A stretch of 64,000 nt of DNA from an uncultured virus (IMG/VR IMGVR_UViG_3300025438_000011). Taxonomy: Duplodnaviria; Heunggongvirae; Uroviricota; Caudoviricetes. Location of the stretch: IMG/VR virus record IMGVR_UViG_3300025438_000011. The stretch is one strand, 5' to 3'. Positions 1,940 to 58,934 of the stretch are shown piece after piece. The notes under the pieces are model-generated. The model ran no database searches, had not been told where the DNA came from, and worked only from the letters and a program-made list of their open reading frames with translations. The translations under genes and the position numbers were made by a program. Each line of letters begins with the position of its first letter. Within the stretch, counting starts at the first letter, position 1.

Positions 1940-2038
1940 TTTTAGTTCGTATATAATGATATGATTCGTACACCGATTAACTACTCATCTATTGATTACG
2001 AATCAGTGATGATACCATTACAATACATTATATTATTG

Positions 2039-2113
2039 TTCCTCTACTAGGGTTCCAACCTAGAATCTTCCGGATCAAAACCGGACGTGTTAAGCAAATT
2101 ACACCATAGAGGA
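2039..2113 (-). tRNA. tRNA-Gln(UUG)
   Basis: Acceptor TCCTCTA/TAGAGGA; anticodon arm TCCGG-TTTTGAT-CCGGA; T arm CTAGG-TTGGAAC-CCTAG; CCA not encoded. Confidence 0.85.
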
Positions 2114-2121
2114 TTATTTTG

Positions 2122-2192
2122 TTGCTCCACTTGGACTCGGACCAAGTTCATCTACTTCAAAGGTAGATATGTTACCCATATACTATAGAGCA
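2122..2192 (-). tRNA. tRNA-Gln(UUG), second copy
   Basis: Acceptor TGCTCTA/TGGAGCA; anticodon arm TCTAC-CTTTGAA-GTAGA; T arm CTTGG-TCCGAGT-CCAAG. Confidence 0.8.
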
Positions 2193-2194
2193 TT

Positions 2195-2228
2195 AAAAAA
2201 CCCGGTTAATCGTTAGATTAACCGGGTT
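2195..2228 (-). terminator. Intrinsic terminator (attenuator) upstream of the tRNA-Gln genes
   Basis: AACCCGGTTAATC-TAAC-GATTAACCGGGTT followed by a T-run on the minus strand. Confidence 0.85.
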
Positions 2229-2255
2229 CATCAATATTATTTGTTAGACAATACT

Positions 2256-2315
2256 CTACCAGTCAATCTCTCGATCGATTTGTTGCTGTTGCTGGTATTG
2301 AGTTACTATTGTCAT
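2256..2315 (-). CDS. Gln-rich attenuation leader peptide MTIVTQYQQQQQIDREIDW
   Basis: 19 codons, 6 of 7 consecutive codons are Gln; lies between an AATATATA motif and the terminator; its 3' end is complementary to the terminator 5' arm. Confidence 0.85.
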   Translation of the reverse strand: MTIVTQYQQQQQIDREIDW

Positions 2316-2329
2316 AATTTCTTCTTCTG

Positions 2330-2337
2330 TATATATT
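2330..2337 (-). promoter_or_regulatory. AATATATA putative phage promoter motif
   Basis: Same motif recurs shortly upstream of many start codons in the window. Confidence 0.5.
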
Positions 2338-5651: not shown

Positions 5652-5753
5652 TTTAAATAAATCGGTCTTTTGTTCTAGGTATTAATGAACATTCTTCGAC
5701 CGTTCTTAAATTCAACAGTTGTTTGACTGTTTAAAATTTAATTATATTTTACT

Positions 5754-6620
5754 CTAATCCCATTTATGTTTTGCTCCTTTTATCCATCCATCATTTAGGT
5801 AATTATGTAATTCTTCCTTTTTTATTGGTTTACTTTTCTTAATCTCCATATTATATACCCAACAAGTACCATATTGTGAATTTTTCTCACCTTTTTGGTG
5901 TATGGAATTTTTCTCACCTATCTTTCTTTTTGATTCTTTTGTGTGTTTTTTACCTTTCCATAGAGGAATAAGTTCTCCATTTAAAAACCTGAGATCATCT
6001 TTACAAACATAATGTATATTACCATCTATATCTTTGGTTGTGACCATACCATCCGATATATATCGTAATTCACCATTTAAATATCTAATATCATCAACTT
6101 TAACTGATGAAATATTACCATCTACATCTTTAACAGGTACCATTCCTTTGGTTGTTCCGACTAATTCACCACTTAAGTATCTATCATCGTCAATATTGAC
6201 CTTTAAATATTCACCAGCACTATTTTTGACGGTGGTCATACCTTTTGTGATTCCGACCAATTTACCAGATAAATATCTTTTATCACTTTTATGTACTCTC
6301 ATACAATCACCAGACTCGTCCCTGACCATTATTGTATCGACTGTATTAAAAGTTCCACCTATTATTATATTATATGTATCGTCCCTTTTTATGAATTCTC
6401 TATTAACTAATTTAGATTCCTTCTCTAACATATCACTTTTATTATCAAAATTATATAGAATTATTTTATCAAAATTTTCTTTCCCAAATTCATCAATTGC
6501 CTTTTTAATATTAGTACCACTACCCATATAACTATCGTTTATATTTTTGGTTATGTGACACCCAATGTATATTTTATCATCAACTCTATTGGTTATTTGA
6601 TATACGATATAATTTTTCAT
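5754..6620 (-). CDS. Free-standing GIY-YIG homing endonuclease (Seg-like)
   Basis: YIVYQITN..KIYIG..YMGSG..E..YN; four internal D.RYLSGELVG repeats; NUMOD3-like WKGKKHTKESKRKIG. Confidence 0.85.
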   Translation of the reverse strand: MKNYIVYQITNRVDDKIYIGCHITKNINDSYMGSGTNIKKAIDEFGKENFDKIILYNFDNKSDMLEKESKLVNREFIKRDDTYNIIIGGTFNTVDTIMVRDESGDCMRVHKSDKRYLSGKLVGITKGMTTVKNSAGEYLKVNIDDDRYLSGELVGTTKGMVPVKDVDGNISSVKVDDIRYLNGELRYISDGMVTTKDIDGNIHYVCKDDLRFLNGELIPLWKGKKHTKESKRKIGEKNSIHQKGEKNSQYGTCWVYNMEIKKSKPIKKEELHNYLNDGWIKGAKHKWD

Positions 6621-6716
6621 AATTAATATACTATTTTTTAGTATATATAAAAGTCCGATATTACTTTTTATCGGAGTAAATGTAGAGTCTCTAATATTTG
6701 AACCATTGTACTGTTG

Positions 6717-6792
6717 TCGGGGTGGCCGGATTCGAACCCACCTGATATCTCACGCGACAAGTGAGTAGACACGCCAAGCATCTCCCAGGACC
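6717..6792 (-). pseudogene. Chimeric tRNA: 5' tRNA-Asp(GUC) joined to a tRNA-Pro-like 3' end
   Basis: Intact anticodon arm CTCAC-TTGTCGC-GTGAG; acceptor GGTCCTG does not pair with CACCCCG; T stem broken across GGTTCGAATCC. Confidence 0.7.
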
Positions 6793-6801
6793 ATATTTTT
6801 G

Positions 6802-6875
6802 TGCGGGGTGTGGGATTCGAACCCACGACCACTCCAGTCCAAGTGGAGTAAACATCCTGACCGTTATCACCCTAC
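6802..6875 (-). tRNA. tRNA-Pro(UGG)
   Basis: Anticodon arm CTCCA-CTTGGAC-TGGAG; T arm GTGGG-TTCGAAT-CCCAC; acceptor GTAGGGT/ACCCCGC with one A-C mismatch. Confidence 0.75.
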
Positions 6876-6881
6876 ATTTTT

Positions 6882-6935
6882 GTCTAGTGGATGGGATTCG
6901 AACCCATCAGTTAAGAATTGCCATTCATCACTAGA
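6882..6935 (-). ncRNA. 54-nt tRNA-like RNA lacking an anticodon arm
   Basis: Perfect acceptor TCTAGTG/CACTAGA, T arm GATGGG-TTCGAAT-CCCATC, only one small hairpin GAAT-GGCA-ATTC between them. Confidence 0.6.
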
Positions 6936-6945
6936 TTTTACGCAT

Positions 6946-6981
6946 AAAAAAACTCAGTTAATCTAATTGACTAACTGAGTT
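6946..6981 (-). terminator. Intrinsic terminator (attenuator) upstream of the Pro/Asp tRNA cluster
   Basis: AACTCAGTTAGTC-AATTA-GATTAACTGAGTT plus T-run. Confidence 0.85.
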
Positions 6982-7008
6982 GTTATATGGGTTTGTATTA
7001 TTTAATGA

Positions 7009-7122
7009 TTATCTATAATCATCTGTTTCAAACTTTTTAACGCAGTTAGTCCTAATAGGATCGGGATCCTGATCGGTAACTCTCGGAAGAGGTTGAACTG
7101 ATATGTTAAAAAGTGTTTTCAT
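7009..7122 (-). CDS. Pro/Asp-rich leader peptide MKTLFNISVQPLPRVTDQDPDPIRTNCVKKFETDDYR
   Basis: 37 codons after AATATATA (7130-7137); contains GACTAACTGCGTT, complementary to the terminator 5' arm. Confidence 0.75.
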   Translation of the reverse strand: MKTLFNISVQPLPRVTDQDPDPIRTNCVKKFETDDYR

Positions 7123-7168
7123 CTGTTTCTATATATTAGGTTTTGTTTGTCCCTTTTCTTTTACACTA

Positions 7169-7199
7169 CAAAGGTAGTAAAGTTTACTTAACCACCAAA
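7169..7199 (-). promoter_or_regulatory. Consensus Bacteroidota sigma70 promoter
   Basis: TTTG-N19-TACCTTTG upstream of the leader and tRNA cluster. Confidence 0.7.
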
Positions 7200-7249
7200 A
7201 TTATTTGATAATATTCTTCGGTCTTTGATTTCTTATCAATACTTTCATT

Positions 7250-7519
7250 TTAATATTTAATATATTCTAATAATTTCAACTGTAGTTTTTCATCGGGGCT
7301 ATCTGTATCACTTTCTTTTAGGCTCATATATAGCTCAGCAATATTTTCGTGATCCAGTAGTATATCAAGATTAACTGACATATCAACCATTATGTAATCG
7401 GTAAATTCTTCCATAAAAAGCTGGATATTTACTAACGTTCCGATTTTGAAATCGGCTTCGGTTAATTTAGTCAATTCTTCGTTGGTTTTATATTTACCAA
7501 AATTATTTAAGTGTTCCAT
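7250..7519 (-). CDS. Hypothetical protein (possible capsid-internal)
   Basis: AATATATA upstream; N-terminus MEHLNNFGKYKTNE. Confidence 0.65.
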   Translation of the reverse strand: MEHLNNFGKYKTNEELTKLTEADFKIGTLVNIQLFMEEFTDYIMVDMSVNLDILLDHENIAELYMSLKESDTDSPDEKLQLKLLEYIKY

Positions 7520-7549
7520 GAATTATATATTAAATACAAAAATCATTAA

Positions 7550-7843
7550 TCATTTTAATATTTCTTCAAGTTTCTTGTTACGTAACCAGGGTTTGTGTAG
7601 TTTGATATAATAAGGGTGTGTGTAGTTATGGTCGGCTCCTAGTCGAGTATCTGTTACCAATAGTGGATCATTCATAGCATTCGTATTATACCCGGTTACT
7701 GTAAAAATTCCTTCTCTGTAATGTGATCTTTTATCATTCTCATCCATATAGAATTTAGACCCAATCGGATAGCATTCTTTTGTATATTCCAGCTTATCTA
7801 TTTTTGGTAGGGAATCAAATATATTTTTGTCGAATATTTTCAT
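7550..7843 (-). CDS. Hypothetical protein (YPIG..V.GY..HP family), RNKKLEEIL tag
   Basis: Similar to 8435 and 8670. Confidence 0.75.
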   Translation of the reverse strand: MKIFDKNIFDSLPKIDKLEYTKECYPIGSKFYMDENDKRSHYREGIFTVTGYNTNAMNDPLLVTDTRLGADHNYTHPYYIKLHKPWLRNKKLEEILK

Positions 7844-8111
7844 TTAAATTTAGGATTATTTTCAGTTTTTCATAACGAATCTCTTTTATACTTTTGAAAT
7901 ATTGTGGAATACAGAAATGTCTTACTCTAACATTCGTTAGAAACCATTGGTCTGAATCATTATCACCGAATAAGCTTACTTGTTTGTTATACTCATCAGG
8001 AGGGAAGGCCCTAACATCACTGATTATATAATTTTTACCTTTGGTGAATGAAATACCATATTGTTTTAAATCTTTAATACAGTGTAGATGATTGCCTATT
8101 TCATACTTCAT
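7815..8111 (-). CDS. Hypothetical protein, tandem paralogue of 8101-8373
   Basis: Shared L.CIKDL, F.KG.NY, QWFL.NV, IPQYFK..KEIR..KLK. Confidence 0.75.
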   Translation of the reverse strand: MKYEIGNHLHCIKDLKQYGISFTKGKNYIISDVRAFPPDEYNKQVSLFGDNDSDQWFLTNVRVRHFCIPQYFKSIKEIRYEKLKIILNLNENIRQKYI

Positions 8112-8373
8112 ATAACAATTTTTTCAATTTAATAGAACGAATCTCTTTTTTAGTTTTGAAATATTGTGGAATACTGAGATGGCCTTTATTAACATTTATT
8201 AGAAACCATTGGTAGTATCCAGTGTCACTGATTACGCATACCTTATTTGAGATATGTATATCATCTTTCTCTTGTATCTCTATGACTTTATAATTATTAC
8301 CTTTTTGGAATTGACATACATCATCATCTAAATCTTTTATACAGTATAAAATATCACCTACTTTAATTTTCAT
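8101..8373 (-). CDS. Hypothetical protein, tandem paralogue of 7815-8111
   Basis: Shares the L.CIKDL, QWFL.NV and IPQYFK..KEIR blocks with 7815. Confidence 0.75.
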   Translation of the reverse strand: MKIKVGDILYCIKDLDDDVCQFQKGNNYKVIEIQEKDDIHISNKVCVISDTGYYQWFLINVNKGHLSIPQYFKTKKEIRSIKLKKLLYEV

Positions 8374-8434
8374 TTCTTTTTACCAATTTATTCATTTTGT
8401 TAAGGTAGTGAAAATTTACTAGAACTTAGATTTA

Positions 8435-8695
8435 TTATTTCAGCAAATTTAGGAGGTTCAAGTTTCTTATTTGTTTCATATCGTTCTCAATATTATCGGG
8501 GTGTAATAATGTTCCATCACTACTAGTATTTTTCAATGGTGGATTTATTTTTAGTATACTATTAAATTTTTTCAAAACATACCCAACAACTATCATGGGT
8601 TCTTCGTGATAAAAGATACAATGACTTGTGGCTGATTTTTTTAGAAATACGGTAGTTCCTATTGGATATTTATTTTTTAGATCTTTCGGATTCAT
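8435..8695 (-). CDS. Hypothetical protein (YPIG..V.GY..HP family)
   Basis: ORF; C-terminal RNLNLLNLL. Confidence 0.7.
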   Translation of the reverse strand: MNPKDLKNKYPIGTTVFLKKSATSHCIFYHEEPMIVVGYVLKKFNSILKINPPLKNTSSDGTLLHPDNIENDMKQIRNLNLLNLLK

Positions 8696-9077
8696 CGAGT
8701 ATATTTTCTAATATATAATTGCGTCTGTATTCTAATCCAAGTTGTACATTATTTGGATGTATTCTGTTAATATTGTTTTTATGAGGTATTCCACTAATTT
8801 CTAATATAGTTTCTCCATTACTGATTGATACGTATCCGGTGACATCATATCCGGTATCATAGAACCACGGCAAACCTCTAAATTCTTCCTTCCCGTAAAC
8901 TTTTATACCAACTGGGAAACATTCCTCTAGATATTCTATGATATTAGTACCTATTAGTGTTTTTGAATGATGTGAATTATATTTCTTAATTTTAAACATC
9001 ATCGAGTGTACATACACATTCCCCGGAATTCTCGAATGTCTTTTTAATCTTTGGATATCCACATTCCTGACAGACAT
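8670..9077 (-). CDS. Hypothetical protein (YPIG..V.GY..HP family); true start probably near 9000
   Basis: FPVG..VTGY..IHPNN; RNYILENIL. Confidence 0.7.
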   Translation of the reverse strand: MSVRNVDIQRLKRHSRIPGNVYVHSMMFKIKKYNSHHSKTLIGTNIIEYLEECFPVGIKVYGKEEFRGLPWFYDTGYDVTGYVSISNGETILEISGIPHKNNINRIHPNNVQLGLEYRRNYILENILDESERSKK

Positions 9078-31605: not shown

Positions 31606-32946
31606 ATACCTGAGCGTAAAACACACAAGTCTTTAGCTTGTGTGATGTAAGCGAATAAAAACTTTTCACAAATATTAAAGTATTTTACAAAAAAAATAAA
31701 AAATGTAAAAAATGACTTTTAAAGTTTAATATATACTTTTAATGAAAACAATATTTAAGTCATTTAAGTTTAGAATATATCCAACAAAAGATCAAGAAAT
31801 CTTGTTGGCTAAACATTTTGGGGCAAATAGATTTGTTTTTAATTACTATCTAAACAAAAGAAAAGAAAGTTATCTCGGTGAAGATAAGAAATCACTAAAT
31901 TATTATGATAATGCTAATGATTTAACACAATTAAAGAAAAATGAAGATTATATTTGGTTAAAAGAAATCAATAGTCAATCACTTCAATCATCAATTAGAA
32001 ATTTAGACACAGCTTATATGAAATTTTTTAGGAAACAAACTAAATTCCCAAGATTTAAGTCAAAATATGATAGACAATCTTTTAAAATACCACAAAATGT
32101 GTTAATTAAAGATAATAAATTAAATATACCTAAATTTAAAGAAGGAATTAAAATTAATTTACATCAAGAAATAGAAGGTAAAATAGCCTTTGCTACCATA
32201 TCTAAATCAACAACAGACAAATATTATGTATCAATTACATGTGAAATAAATCATAACCCTTTTGGAAAAACTGGTAGTGAAATAGGAATTGATACTGGAA
32301 TTAAAGACTTAGCTATATTAAGTGATGGTACTACATATGAAAATATTAAAACACTTAAAAACAATTTAAAGAAATTAAAATATGAACAGAGACAACTATC
32401 AAAGAAAGTTAAAGGAAGTTCATCAAGAAATAAACAAAGAAAAACCCTTGCTATAATTCATGAAAAAATAACCAATGTAAGAAAAGATTATTTACATAAA
32501 ATTTCTACTGAAATCATCAAAAACCACGATGTAATTTGTGTAGAGGATTTAGCTATAAAAAATATGATGAAAAATCATAAGTTAGCACAAGCATTTTCGG
32601 ATGTTAGTTTAGGTTCATTCTATTCTATGTTAGAATATAAAGCTAAATGGAATGACAAACAATATGTTAAAATTGATAGGTTTTTCCCATCATCTAAAAT
32701 GTGTTTTAAATGTGGATGGATAAATCAAGATTTAACATTAAAAGATAGAGAATGGACTTGCCCTTCATGTAACACAACACACGATAGAGATTTTAATGCG
32801 GCTAAAAACATATTAAAACAAGGTTTAAAAATACTATCTGGATTAGGGACTAATTCGGATATAAAACAAAAACAGGTGGAGTCGTTGTCGTTAGACGAGG
32901 CTATGAAACCTGAAACACATTAGTCTTTAGCTAATGTGTAGTTCAT
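31606..32946 (+). mobile_element. IS200/IS605-family (IS1341-type, tnpB-only) element
   Basis: TTTAT target at 31601-05; left hairpin CACACAAG-TCTTTAG-CTTGTGTG; right hairpin ACACATTAG-TCTTTAG-CTAATGTGT; ends TTCAT; no tnpA. Confidence 0.9.
31742..32923 (+). CDS. tnpB: RNA-guided endonuclease TnpB
   Basis: KFRIYPT N-terminus; RuvC GIDTG, VEDL, DRDFNAA intact; CFKC..CPSC zinc finger. Confidence 0.95.
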   Translation: MKTIFKSFKFRIYPTKDQEILLAKHFGANRFVFNYYLNKRKESYLGEDKKSLNYYDNANDLTQLKKNEDYIWLKEINSQSLQSSIRNLDTAYMKFFRKQTKFPRFKSKYDRQSFKIPQNVLIKDNKLNIPKFKEGIKINLHQEIEGKIAFATISKSTTDKYYVSITCEINHNPFGKTGSEIGIDTGIKDLAILSDGTTYENIKTLKNNLKKLKYEQRQLSKKVKGSSSRNKQRKTLAIIHEKITNVRKDYLHKISTEIIKNHDVICVEDLAIKNMMKNHKLAQAFSDVSLGSFYSMLEYKAKWNDKQYVKIDRFFPSSKMCFKCGWINQDLTLKDREWTCPSCNTTHDRDFNAAKNILKQGLKILSGLGTNSDIKQKQVESLSLDEAMKPETH

Positions 32947-58124: not shown

Positions 58125-58934
58125 ATGAAGCAAATAGAAGGCATGAAGAATTTCTCGGTACAGGGAAAATTCTTTAAAGAACAAACTGGTAAGGATTTTG
58201 AATTTTTCTACGATAAATACTTTGATAAACTAATATACTTTGTAAATAAAATGGTCGATGATAGTAAGATGGCAGAAGATCTGGCAACTGAATCATTCCT
58301 TATAGCATTACATAAGATTGAGAAATATGAAAAAGAGAAATCTCAATTCTCAACATGGTTATTTACAGTAGCCAGAAATCACACATTACAAGAACTTAAG
58401 AAAAGTAAAAAAACTATATCGATGGATGTTTATGTTGATGAAGATGGTACGACTATGAAGGATTTCATACAATATGATGAATCCGAAGATATTCTCATGG
58501 ATAGTGTCTGGAATAAGAAAGCACAGATTATGAGTGATCATATCTATGCTCTTAAAGAACCGTTCAAAACTGTCATTGAAATGAGAGAAGTAAAGAAAAT
58601 GGTTTATAAAGATATTGCCGCTCAACTTGGTAATGATGTTACATTTTCAATACAATCAATTGGTGAATCAGTTAAACTGCCTTATGAATTATCTGAGGCT
58701 AGTTCAGTTACTAATATCATAGGTGATGAGATTGAATTTAGTCTTATTGAAGGAGATGCTAAGAAAACGCCTTTTTATACACATATCAAAGTTAAATCTG
58801 TTGGTGAGTTCAGAGTTATTGGTAGAAGTCCTAAACCACTGAGTACTATAAAAAGTCAGATTCGTAATGGTCGTTTGAAGTTAATCAACGAAACCAAGAA
58901 AGAATTCAAGGAAATCGAAAATATGTTCATGTAA
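58125..58934 (+). CDS. ECF-type sigma factor with a large insertion in region 4
   Basis: AEDLATESF...FSTWLFTVARN (region 2); YKDIAAQLG..[67 aa]..PLSTIKSQIRNGR. Confidence 0.85.
   Translation: MKQIEGMKNFSVQGKFFKEQTGKDFEFFYDKYFDKLIYFVNKMVDDSKMAEDLATESFLIALHKIEKYEKEKSQFSTWLFTVARNHTLQELKKSKKTISMDVYVDEDGTTMKDFIQYDESEDILMDSVWNKKAQIMSDHIYALKEPFKTVIEMREVKKMVYKDIAAQLGNDVTFSIQSIGESVKLPYELSEASSVTNIIGDEIEFSLIEGDAKKTPFYTHIKVKSVGEFRVIGRSPKPLSTIKSQIRNGRLKLINETKKEFKEIENMFM

What the first reader, a model, noticed from the sequence alone, without database searches (positions are those of the whole stretch)
6717..7199. Second attenuator: Pro/Asp leader matched to downstream tRNA-Pro and tRNA-Asp
Seen: a 37-aa leader with 4 Pro and 3 Asp in codons 11-22 (PLPRVTDQDPDP). 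It is followed by GACTAACTGCGTT (7039-7051), a 12/13 complement of the terminator 5' arm AACTCAGTTAGTC. A protector pairing ACTTTTTAAC/GTTAAAAAGT plus CAGTT/AACTG is also present. Genes after the terminator carry UGG (Pro) and GUC (Asp) anticodons, so leader codons match cluster content. Both a host-type promoter and an AATATATA motif lie upstream. Inference: a two-amino-acid sensor.
Basis: partly seen in the sequence, partly recalled or inferred. Interest (0 to 1): 0.85.

Follow-up and report, generated by a model that had tools for sequence, protein, structure and literature searches.

The report
Phage tRNA genes behind codon-sensing switch
A giant bacteriophage puts a tiny reading frame rich in proline, glutamine and aspartate codons, plus a switchable stop signal, in front of its proline and aspartate tRNA genes, apparently so that these tRNAs are made only when ribosomes run short of them; such control has not been described for tRNA genes.

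Summary
All parts lie on the minus strand. A Bacteroidota-type promoter and an AATATATA motif precede a 37-codon ORF (7122..7009). A 13-bp intrinsic terminator (6981..6951) follows, then 10 nt later a truncated tRNA-like piece, tRNA-Pro(UGG) and a sub-threshold tRNA-Asp(GUC).

The 13-mer at 7051..7039 pairs with the terminator's 5' arm far better than shuffled leaders do (0 of 500). A protector helix sequesters it in the MFE fold.

The window is a huge phage related to LR745206.1 and LR756502.1. The cassette recurs in 47 distinct relatives:
- The ORF is open, with 1-4 Pro and a D-Q-D core (the search pattern fixed that core in 44 of them).
- 187 of 201 downstream tRNAs are Asp, Gln or Pro.
- The antiterminator segment is conserved at synonymous positions while the amino acids vary.

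Paralogous cassettes precede most tRNA clusters in six huge phages, including Lak-A1. Leader composition matches cluster content: the cognate assignment is the best of 40,320 and of 5,040 permutations, and 0 of 200,000 reassignments reach it. The same cassettes precede aaRS genes of matching specificity.

The best reading is classical ribosome-mediated attenuation re-targeted to tRNA genes, sensing Pro, Gln and probably Asp. It rests on sequence alone. Ten literature searches found no prior description.

The parts
7169..7199 (-). Host-type (Bacteroidota-like) promoter: TTTG at 7199..7196 and a TAnnTTTG match at 7176..7169
   Evidence: Read; the consensus is recalled, not tested. The same element is aligned and conserved in the LR745206.1 and LR756502.1 orthologs. 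TAnnTTTG lies within 110 nt upstream of the ATG in 38 of 44 metagenome orthologs.
7130..7137 (-). AATATATA motif, a probable phage-specific promoter element, 7 nt before the leader ATG
   Evidence: An ATATA[TA]A motif ends 5 nt before the ATG in 32 of 44 orthologs and 7 nt before it in 5. In LR745206.1 the same motif sits directly before a tRNA-Met with no ORF in between, so it is not a ribosome-binding signal.
7009..7122 (-). Leader ORF of 37 codons plus stop
   Evidence: It is open in 44 of 45 distinct metagenome/IMG-VR orthologs; the 45th is cut by its contig end. It is also open in both named relatives. Lengths are 27-35 aa in the 44 metagenome leaders, 31 and 35 aa in the named relatives, and 37 aa here.
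7057..7092 (-). Regulatory codons 11-22: 4 Pro, 3 Asp, 1 Gln
   Evidence: The 10-nt core that encodes D-Q-D is invariant in the three-way alignment.
7096..7114 (-). Region 1 (protector, 5' strand of the 1:2 helix)
   Evidence: MFE folds. An equivalent region 1 at codons 8-18 (codons 9-13 in most) pairs with the region-2 core in 37 of 47 orthologs.
7032..7051 (-). Region 2. Bases 7051..7039 form the antiterminator strand, complementary at 12 of 13 positions to the terminator 5' arm. Bases 7047..7032 pair with region 1.
   Evidence: Synonymous-site conservation in orthologs is shown.
7004..7023 (-). Small 8-bp hairpin containing the leader stop codon (7011..7009)
   Evidence: MFE folds. Its role is unknown; a pause site is possible.
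6946..6981 (-). Intrinsic terminator: region 3 at 6981..6969, loop, region 4 at 6963..6951, T-run at 6950..6946
   Evidence: 13 pairs. A compensatory change in the outer stem separates the window from LR745206.1 and LR756502.1.
6883..6935 (-). tRNA-like piece with a 7-bp acceptor stem, a short D-like arm and a T arm, but no anticodon arm
   Evidence: Read. ARAGORN does not call it, even at a 70% threshold.
6801..6875 (-). tRNA-Pro (anticodon UGG)
   Evidence: ARAGORN; there is one A-C mismatch in the acceptor stem. It is not listed at Rfam's gathering score.
6716..6788 (-). Sub-threshold tRNA-Asp (anticodon GUC), possibly decaying
   Evidence: ARAGORN calls it only at thresholds of 90% or lower. 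There is no Rfam match at E<=10.
6654..6675 (-). Terminator-like hairpin after the tRNA cluster, before the GIY-YIG homing endonuclease gene (6620..5754)
   Evidence: 7 pairs, weak T-run. The endonuclease is identified.

Best explanation
This is a ribosome-mediated (leader-peptide) transcription attenuator of the trp/his type. It is carried by a huge phage of Bacteroidota, and its cargo is a tRNA gene cluster rather than biosynthetic genes.

Transcription starts at the host-type promoter or at the phage AATATATA promoter, and the 37-codon leader is translated as it emerges. Three outcomes follow.

1. Charged tRNA-Pro, tRNA-Gln and probably tRNA-Asp are plentiful. The ribosome runs through codons 11-22 and over region 2. 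The terminator (3:4) forms and RNA polymerase stops at 6950..6946, 10 nt before the first tRNA-like gene.
2. These aminoacyl-tRNAs are scarce. The ribosome stalls between regions 1 and 2, so the 1:2 protector helix cannot form. Region 2 pairs with the terminator's 5' arm (2:3). The polymerase reads through and transcribes the Pro and Asp tRNAs.
3. No ribosome is loaded. The 1:2 helix forms and termination follows.

The result is negative feedback: the phage makes a tRNA when translation runs short of it.

Shown from sequence: the parts exist, are non-random and are conserved; the RNA-level constraint on region 2; and the leader-to-cargo match across paralogs.

Inferred: translation of the ORF, stalling, the direction of the switch, and which of the three amino acids are sensed.
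For: Anatomy and chance.

Constrained folding.
- On the nascent RNA up to the terminator loop, region 3 pairs with region 2 (11-12 pairs) when a ribosome is masked with its A site at codons 11, 13, 17, 19, 20 or 21.
- The full transcript without a stalled ribosome folds 1:2 plus the terminator.

Orthologs.
- LR745206.1 and LR756502.1 (63% aa identity on a 1057-aa protein) carry the same promoter-leader-terminator unit ahead of Pro/Asp tRNAs.
- A pattern scan gave 54 loci and 45 distinct sequences. All 44 complete ORFs keep 2-4 Pro.
- 40 of 45 loci have tRNAs downstream; the other five have 142 nt of flank or less.
- 187 of 201 downstream tRNAs are Asp(GUC), Gln or Pro(UGG).
- The first tRNA starts within 39 nt of the terminator in 25 of 40 loci, which leaves no room for a separate promoter.
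- A terminator-only scan, free of leader bias, gave 16 loci. Seven were true terminators, all with the leader and Asp/Pro tRNAs. Nine were chance hits with no T-run and no tRNA.

RNA-level selection on region 2.
- The Asn codon inside region 2 is AAC in 42 of 43 leaders, against 19% genome usage.
- The codon before it is GCT or ACT in 46 of 46.
- The codon before that ends in G in 46 of 46, although it encodes eight different amino acids.
- These are the bases that pair with the terminator arm.

Family-level match of leader to cargo.
- An automated pipeline found 8, 7 and 2 units in LR745206.1, LR756502.1 and the window.
- The cognate leader-cluster assignment is the single best of 40,320 and of 5,040 permutations.
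- In 14 units from LR756501.1, LR756504.1, LR756500.1 and Lak-A1, 0 of 200,000 reassignments reach the observed match.

Leader and terminator co-vary among paralogs. Cognate duplexes sum to -145.3 kcal/mol, against -90.4 +/- 8.7 for reassigned pairs (0 of 100,000).

Same cassette before aaRS genes. In LR745206.1, 12 terminators carry a short ORF preceded by the promoter motif. Six precede tRNAs. The other six precede aaRS-type genes whose specificity mostly matches the leader's codon run: Ile run with IleRS, Phe run with a PheS-related ligase, Val run with a ValRS-like gene, Leu run with a LeuRS-like gene, and Asn-Asp-Asp with a non-discriminating AspRS.

Sister unit in the window. At 2315..2201, a leader with six Gln in 18 codons, a terminator and two tRNA-Gln follow one another; the antiterminator z-score is -6.2.
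Against: Function rests on sequence alone.

- For this leader family the composition signal is modest. Pro+Asp is 6 of 30 in LR745206.1 (P=0.09) and 5 of 34 in LR756502.1 (P=0.29).
- Asp is not enriched over the proteome: 0.025 beyond the two pattern-fixed codons, against 0.077.
- The regulatory codons are interspersed rather than forming a run, and LR756502.1 keeps only one Pro.
- At equilibrium the terminator fold beats the forced antiterminator (-44.5 against -35.8 kcal/mol). The switch would therefore have to be kinetic.
- A ribosome with its A site at codon 22 masks region 2 and gives no 2:3 pairing.
- Without any ribosome, the nascent RNA already prefers 2:3 thermodynamically. The protector's role therefore also depends on folding order.
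- The 2:3 inner helix shows no compensatory changes among orthologs, because my search patterns fixed it.
- By my criterion the 1:2 helix is missing in 10 of 47 leader-only folds. The window is one of these; its 1:2 helix is shifted.
- The codon-box test (Arg, Leu, Ser) is weak overall: 27 of 40 against 23.9 expected. The one clear signal is CGN Arg codons in 5 of 5 where ACG or TCG tRNAs follow in LR745206.1 and LR756502.1, but only 1 of 4 in LR756504.1.
- 5 of 16 tRNA-rich regions in the four distant phages gave no cassette under my strict terminator rule.
- The cargo in this window is eroded.
Confidence: 0.75

Rival explanations
1. It is a general translation-coupling sensor. The leader and the alternative hairpins report only whether ribosomes follow the polymerase (global translation capacity). 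They do not report supply of particular aminoacyl-tRNAs, and the codon content is secondary.
For: Regulatory codons in this leader are scattered. Asp is not enriched. One ortholog has a single Pro. All paralogs share an N-terminal M-K/T-T/N start regardless of cargo.
Against: Leader composition tracks cargo across paralogs far beyond permutation. It also tracks aaRS specificity. Pro and Gln are each enriched 3-fold or more in 44 orthologs.
Confidence: 0.1
2. It is an RNA-only switch. A protein, a small molecule or a tRNA (as in T-box elements) binds the leader RNA and chooses between antiterminator and terminator. The ORF is incidental.
For: Region 2 is conserved at the nucleotide level rather than the amino-acid level. 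The D-Q-D core is invariant at synonymous sites, which could reflect an RNA motif.
Against: The frame is open in all 47 complete orthologs (44 metagenome leaders, two named relatives, the window), with the ATG at a fixed distance from the promoter motif. No T-box or other Rfam family matches at E<=10. An RNA-only model does not explain why amino-acid content follows the cargo.
Confidence: 0.06
3. It is an ordinary terminator of an upstream transcription unit with a small conserved peptide gene in front. The tRNAs are expressed constitutively by leaky read-through or processing, and the complementarities are by-products of duplicated terminator halves.
For: The terminator is strong and thermodynamically dominant. 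Region 2 resembles the terminator's 3' arm and could be a decayed copy.
Against: The antiterminator is maintained by selection at synonymous sites. Each paralog's leader matches its own terminator. An ordinary gene terminator before a lone tRNA-Met shows no such complementarity (z 0.0). In most loci there is no room for a promoter between terminator and tRNA.
Confidence: 0.06
4. It is chance: an AT-rich intergenic region that happens to contain an ORF and hairpins.
For: Short ORFs and hairpins are common in AT-rich DNA. 60 of 113 strong terminators in LR745206.1 have some short ORF in front of them.
Against: See (shuffle controls; conservation; permutations).
Confidence: 0.01

Closest known systems
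Leader-peptide transcription attenuators of amino-acid biosynthetic operons (trp, his, leu, thr, ilv, pheA leaders of Proteobacteria; named from established knowledge)
   Same: A short translated leader carries regulatory codons. Four segments can form 1:2, 2:3 or 3:4 helices. An intrinsic terminator lies directly before the regulated genes. The terminator is thermodynamically stronger than the antiterminator. The thr and ilv leaders also sense more than one amino acid (recalled).
   Different: The cargo is tRNA genes, not enzymes. The element is phage-borne. It has Bacteroidota-type and phage promoters. Mixed leaders are tailored to multi-isotype tRNA clusters. There is no sequence relationship: no Rfam leader family matches at E<=10.
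Leader-peptide attenuators before aminoacyl-tRNA synthetase genes (E. coli pheST/pheM, recalled; hisS paralogs in bacilli, PMC2965389, passages read)
   Same: A gene of the translation-supply chain is induced when ribosomes stall at the cognate codons. The same phage lineage uses the same cassette before its own aaRS genes.
   Different: Here the product is the tRNA itself, so the loop acts on tRNA abundance rather than charging capacity. PMC2965389 has no occurrence of 'tRNA gene' or 'tRNA operon'.
T-box riboswitches
   Same: They sense the tRNA charging state, control a terminator/antiterminator choice and regulate translation-supply genes.
   Different: A T-box binds uncharged tRNA directly and has no ORF. 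No T-box match was found here. Here the ribosome is the sensor.
tRNA arrays of huge phages (preprint 10.1101/572362, 'Clades of huge phage'; passages read) and of T4-like phages (recalled)
   Same: These are large phage-encoded tRNA and aaRS sets. The relatives used here (LR7xxxxx records, Lak-A1) are huge-phage genomes of this kind; I did not check whether that paper describes these particular records.
   Different: That paper has 0 occurrences of 'attenuat' or 'leader'. It notes only that some intergenic hairpins look like Rho-independent terminators. I know of no attenuator described for T4 tRNA genes (recalled).

Membership tests
Ribosome-mediated (leader-peptide) transcription attenuator | A short ORF in the 5' leader, positioned to be translated as it is transcribed | tested here: met
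   It is open in all 47 complete orthologs, with the ATG 5-7 nt after the promoter motif in 37 of 44. Translation itself was not testable.
Ribosome-mediated (leader-peptide) transcription attenuator | Regulatory codons for the amino acid(s) tied to the regulated genes | tested here: met
   At family level the cognate assignment is the best of 40,320 and 5,040 permutations and beats 0 of 200,000 reassignments. For this leader Pro is enriched 3-fold and Gln 3.6-fold; Asp is conserved in position but not enriched.
Ribosome-mediated (leader-peptide) transcription attenuator | An intrinsic terminator between the leader ORF and the regulated genes | tested here: met
   It ends 10 nt before the first tRNA-like gene.
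Ribosome-mediated (leader-peptide) transcription attenuator | An antiterminator (2:3) that competes for the terminator's 5' arm | tested here: met
   z -5.4, 0 of 500 shuffles. The paralog swap control gives 0 of 100,000. The pairing forms in ribosome-masked nascent folds.
Ribosome-mediated (leader-peptide) transcription attenuator | An anti-antiterminator (1:2) that a stalled ribosome would disrupt | tested here: met
   A 15-bp interrupted helix appears in the MFE fold. An equivalent helix appears in 37 of 47 orthologs.
Ribosome-mediated (leader-peptide) transcription attenuator | Read-through rises when the cognate charged tRNA is limiting | not testable with these tools
   This needs reporters, 3'-end mapping or in-vitro transcription-translation.
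Known Rfam leader families (Trp, His, Leu, Thr, Phe leaders and others) and T-box | A match to the family covariance model | tested here: not met
   No such family is listed at gathering score in the window or at E<=10 in 6500..7400.
Amino-acid biosynthesis or aaRS attenuator regulons | The regulated genes encode biosynthetic enzymes or synthetases | tested here: not met
   The cargo here is tRNA genes. Sister cassettes in relatives do regulate aaRS genes.

The most novel reading that the evidence does not exclude
Huge phages of the Lak/LR7565xx lineage run a codon-resolved supply regulon. Most of their tRNA clusters, and several of their aminoacyl-tRNA synthetase genes, sit behind their own leader-peptide attenuator. 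Each leader's codons mirror the cargo. Each tRNA set is therefore transcribed only when ribosomes stall for want of exactly those charged tRNAs. This might happen after host tRNA loss or cleavage during infection. It would be the first case of tRNA genes under ribosome-mediated attenuation, and the first amino-acid-specific attenuation system in a virus.
Probability: 0.6. Interest if true: 0.92.

Novelty: new variant of a known kind. Interest (0 to 1): 0.88.

Why it matters
Three points make this matter.

1. It would answer an open question about huge phages. It is not known how and when their dozens of tRNA and synthetase genes are used. The answer here would be an on-demand feedback circuit readable from sequence.

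2. It would extend attenuation, a textbook mechanism known for biosynthetic operons and a few aaRS genes, to tRNA genes and to viruses. It would also place it in a Bacteroidota setting, where leader-peptide control is little documented.

3. It is practical.
- The leaders are short, modular and tailored. Mixed leaders such as Leu/Ser/Cys, or His/Pro/Arg/Gly/Cys/Met in Lak-A1, form a natural series of codon sensors. They could be tested directly with reporters.
- The leader of a cluster predicts its cargo. This can help annotate the many tRNA-like genes that tRNA finders miss in these genomes.

Tried and rejected
- BLASTN of 5700..8200 against phage records matched only the homing endonuclease (43 records, at most 12% coverage).
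- A search for relatives of the neighbouring 89-aa protein in viral contigs found none.
- BLASTN of the locus against whole LR745206.1 and LR756502.1 did not recover the orthologous leader. It gave only short promoter-motif and T-arm hits, plus the LR756502.1 terminator at E=7.6e-5. I found the orthologs by scanning upstream of their tRNA clusters instead.
- Rfam gave no family for the leader.
- The sigma-70 promoter scan was uninformative: 46 sites against 45.8 expected.
- Sequencing runs: no RNA holder is listed. Contigs of four coded DNA runs laid on 6600..7600 were fragmentary. They showed no base substitutions; one contig of run X16 carried 1- and 2-nt deletions at 7008 and 7012, beside the leader stop codon. 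I did not interpret these.
- The codon-box test (Arg, Leu, Ser box against the downstream anticodon box) gave 27 of 40 against 23.9 expected, not convincing overall.
- Compensatory covariation in the inner 2:3 and 3:4 helices among orthologs could not be assessed, because my search patterns fixed those bases.
- My strict terminator rule (T5 or more) missed the 9-codon Lys mini-leaders (4 Lys each) before the Lys tRNAs of LR745206.1 and LR756502.1. Their hairpins lack a T-run.
- The rule found no cassette in 5 of 16 tRNA-rich regions of the distant phages.
I ran the same test on ORFs derived by rule from stored loci.
- In LR756502.1, one candidate cassette (at 418,488, a duplicated terminator) was not sent to Pfam. 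Another (at 377,730) is followed by an RNA-ligase-domain ORF 452 nt away, not by an aaRS.
- Literature: ten full-text searches and passages of two papers turned up no description of leader-peptide attenuators before tRNA genes or in phages. The library holds open-access papers and bioRxiv only, and I did not read supplements.
Full report
**What is there.** The finding lies on the minus strand of an AT-rich window from a huge phage.
- The large ORFs include a 3102-aa protein, an NAD-dependent ligase, an RNA ligase, an SbcC-like protein and a sigma-factor-like protein.
- A 1057-aa protein is 63% identical to proteins of the 635-kb and 642-kb records LR745206.1 and LR756502.1. It is 24-40% identical to proteins of other huge phages, including Prevotella Lak phages.

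Reading 5' to 3' on the minus strand:
1. TTTG (7199..7196) and a TAnnTTTG match (7176..7169). This is the Bacteroidota promoter type, by a recalled consensus.
2. AATATATA (7137..7130).
3. A 37-codon ORF (7122..7009).
4. A small hairpin around its stop codon (7023..7004).
5. A 13-bp terminator with a T-run (6981..6946).
6. Ten nucleotides later, a tRNA-like piece lacking an anticodon arm (6935..6883).
7. tRNA-Pro(UGG) (6875..6801).
8. A tRNA-Asp(GUC) that ARAGORN accepts only at a 90% threshold (6788..6716).
9. A GIY-YIG homing endonuclease gene (6620..5754).

**Is it more than chance?**
- The region folds far better than shuffles (-45.8 kcal/mol, z -4.3, 0 of 200).
- The 13-mer at 7051..7039 and its near-copies occur 4 times in the window, against 0.58 expected.
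- Its duplex with the terminator's 5' arm is -15.9 kcal/mol, against -6.6 +/- 1.7 for 500 dinucleotide shuffles of the leader (0 of 500).

Constrained folds behave like a classical attenuator.
- The full transcript folds 1:2 plus 3:4 (-44.5 kcal/mol).
- On the nascent RNA up to the terminator loop, a masked ribosome with its A site at codon 11, 13, 17, 19, 20 or 21 leaves region 2 paired with region 3 (11-12 pairs).
- With the A site at codon 22, region 2 is masked.
- The forced antiterminator on the full transcript is 8.7 kcal/mol less stable than the terminator fold, so any switch is kinetic. This is also true of the textbook trp leader (recalled).

**Orthologs.**
- BLAST did not find the leader in the relatives. 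I therefore fetched both records whole and located their tRNAs: 59 and 46.
- Each has a Pro/Asp/Gln cluster preceded by the same unit: host-type promoter, AATATATA-type motif, a 31- or 35-codon ORF, and a terminator with a compensatory change in its outer stem.
- A pattern built from the conserved D-Q-D codons and the inner terminator found 5 viral and 49 metagenome loci, 45 of them distinct.
- 44 have a complete ORF of 27-35 codons, with 2-4 Pro each.
- Pro makes up 0.088 of residues, against 0.030 in the phage proteome. Gln beyond the one pattern-fixed codon makes up 0.090, against 0.025. Asp beyond the two fixed codons makes up only 0.025, against 0.077.
- 40 of 45 loci have tRNAs downstream; the rest have 142 nt of flank or less. 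Asp occurs in 37 loci, Pro in 37 and Gln in 27. Of 201 tRNAs called, 187 are Asp(GUC), Gln or Pro(UGG).
- In 25 of 40 loci the first tRNA starts within 39 nt of the terminator.
- To remove the bias of fixing D-Q-D, I scanned viral contigs with the terminator alone. Of 16 loci, 7 were true terminators, all with the leader and Asp/Pro tRNAs (one has D-L-D in place of D-Q-D). The other 9 were chance hits without a T-run and without tRNAs.

**RNA-level selection**. The segment that pairs with the terminator arm shows three signs across 46 leaders.
- The Asn codon is AAC in 42 of 43 cases, against 19% of Asn codons genome-wide.
- The preceding codon is GCT or ACT in 46 of 46.
- The codon before that always ends in G, although it encodes eight different amino acids.

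Conservation thus follows base pairing, not the peptide. In 37 of 47 leaders, the leader-only MFE pairs this core with a region 1 lying within codons 8-18 (codons 9-13 in most), just before or overlapping the first Pro/Gln codons.

**The family.** The same cassette precedes most tRNA clusters.
- An automated pipeline combined ARAGORN, a hairpin plus T-run of five or more, and the longest ATG ORF ending within 100 nt of the terminator. It gave 8 units in LR745206.1, 7 in LR756502.1 and 2 in the window.
- Leaders mirror their cargo. Examples are Gln-rich before Gln tRNAs, Ser/Arg before Arg and Ser, Tyr/Glu before Glu and Tyr, Ile/Gly before Ile and Gly, and Asn/Leu/Thr/Met/Val/Ile before a 15-19-tRNA cluster of those isotypes.
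- Scoring each leader by the excess of residues whose isotype lies in a cluster, the true assignment is the unique maximum of all 40,320 and all 5,040 permutations. One unit kept in the LR745206.1 test is an ordinary gene terminator before a lone tRNA-Met. It shows no match (1 of 70) and no antiterminator (z 0.0).
- In four more distant phages (LR756501.1, LR756504.1, LR756500.1, Lak-A1), I fetched 16 tRNA-rich regions. 11 had cassettes, giving 14 units. 0 of 200,000 reassignments reach the observed match, and 10 of 14 leaders fit their own cluster best.
- Antiterminator complementarity is seen in most units (z -1.1 to -6.2 in 15 of 16; one Gln unit has z -0.2).
- It is specific to each unit's own terminator. 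Cognate duplexes sum to -145.3 kcal/mol, against -90.4 +/- 8.7 for reassigned pairs (0 of 100,000).

**Same device before synthetase genes.**
- A genome-wide scan of LR745206.1 found 113 strong terminators. 60 had some short ORF in front, and 12 of those ORFs are preceded by the promoter motif.
- Six of the 12 precede tRNAs.
- The other six all precede genes with aaRS domains. The pairs are: four consecutive Ile codons with IleRS (above the NCBIfam cut-off); a Phe run with a PheS-related ligase (above the cut-off); Asn-Asp-Asp with a non-discriminating AspRS (above the cut-off, also in LR756502.1); a Val-rich leader with a ValRS-like gene; a Leu run with a LeuRS-like gene; and a single His with a HisRS fragment (the last three below the cut-off).
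- Attenuators of this kind before aaRS genes are known in bacteria (pheST, recalled; hisS in bacilli, PMC2965389). This supports reading the cassette as an amino-acid-specific attenuator.

**Mechanism and its limits.** The best reading is classical attenuation with tRNA genes as cargo. Scarce charged tRNA stalls the ribosome between regions 1 and 2; 2:3 forms; the polymerase reads into the tRNAs; and supply is restored.

The following are inferred, not shown: translation of the leader, stalling, the direction of the switch, and which amino acids count.

For this leader, Pro and Gln sensing are well supported by enrichment. Asp rests on positional conservation of a D-x-D core, whose invariant nucleotides could also serve RNA structure.

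Leader Pro codons favour CCG and CCT (57 and 49 of 128). The genome prefers CCA at 63%, with CCG at 6%. Rare regulatory codons would sharpen a sensor, but shared descent may explain part of this bias.

The codon-box test is weak overall (27 of 40 against 23.9 expected). In the Arg/Ser leaders of LR745206.1 and LR756502.1, whose cargo includes tRNA-Arg(ACG) or (TCG), all five Arg codons are CGN, against 10% genome usage. In LR756504.1 only 1 of 4 is.

In this window the cargo is eroded and a homing endonuclease sits next to it. Even so, the attenuator here is among the best preserved.

**Novelty.** Ten full-text searches, passages of an attenuator survey and passages of the huge-phage preprint (0 occurrences of 'attenuat' or 'leader') gave no description of leader-peptide attenuators before tRNA genes or in phages. 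The library covers open-access papers and bioRxiv only, and I did not read supplements. The mechanism is a known kind. Its cargo, its carrier and its systematic, cargo-tailored deployment are new as far as I can tell.

Noticed in passing
window 2315..2038 (minus strand): This is the sister attenuator. A 19-codon ORF (2315..2256) has six Gln codons. A terminator (2226..2201) follows, and about 10 nt later come two tRNA-Gln(UUG) genes (2192..2121, 2113..2038). The end of the ORF pairs with the terminator's 5' arm (-14.6 kcal/mol, z -6.2, 0 of 500 shuffles). Orthologs in LR745206.1 and LR756502.1 have 7 Gln in 15-16 codons.
   Followed up: yes
LR745206.1 at about 336.6, 345.2, 382.0 and 404.6 kb (plus strand) and about 614.9 and 35.7 kb (minus strand); LR756502.1 at about 426.3 kb (loci L029, L030, L032, L033, L043, L014, L066): The same promoter, short ORF and terminator cassette precedes aminoacyl-tRNA synthetase-type genes. 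Leader codon runs match the enzyme: Ile with IleRS, Phe with a PheS-related ligase, Val with a ValRS-like gene, Leu with a LeuRS-like gene, and Asn-Asp-Asp with a non-discriminating AspRS.
   Followed up: partly
window 7546..7496, 7137..7130 and 2337..2330; dozens of places in LR745206.1 and LR756502.1: An AATATATA-type motif, often extended by T-rich sequence upstream, recurs 5-7 nt before start codons. In LR745206.1 (about 364.85 kb) it lies directly before a tRNA-Met with no ORF. It looks like a phage-specific promoter that would give leaderless or very short-leader mRNAs. The window also encodes a sigma-factor-like protein (58125..58934).
   Followed up: partly
LR745206.1 at about 343.14 kb and LR756502.1 at about 373.59 kb: Nine-codon mini-leaders with four Lys codons stand before runs of three or four tRNA-Lys genes. 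They are followed by a hairpin without a T-run, so my terminator rule missed them.
   Followed up: no
window 6935..6883; many gaps of 80-160 nt between terminators and the first called tRNA in relatives: tRNA-like sequences that ARAGORN does not call are common in these clusters. Here the example has acceptor, D-like and T arms but no anticodon arm. They may be decayed tRNAs or unusual RNAs.
   Followed up: no
window 5754..6620 (minus strand): A GIY-YIG (Seg-like) homing endonuclease gene lies immediately downstream of the eroded Pro/Asp tRNA cluster. About 260 nt of it is 66-71% identical to homing endonuclease genes of T4-like phages of Enterobacteria, Vibrio and Aeromonas. Its insertion may have split the ancestral Pro/Asp/Gln cluster, which is contiguous in relatives.
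   Followed up: no
window 7550..9077 (minus strand): A run of small ORFs (97, 98, 90, 86 and 135 aa) lies here. At least two of them (7815..8111 and 8101..8373) share a C-terminal motif by eye, which suggests tandem paralogs. None of those tested matched PHROGs.
   Followed up: no
window 31742..32923 (plus strand): An ORF with a very strong transposase match (phrog_506, E=1.6e-132) lies inside the phage genome.
   Followed up: no
window 6600..7600: Near-identical DNA occurs in 13 coded public runs (half of the sampled words or more), all labelled salt lake metagenome. Five are marked as possible sources of this DNA. Relatives of the cassette come from many metagenome contigs whose habitats I did not check.
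   Followed up: no
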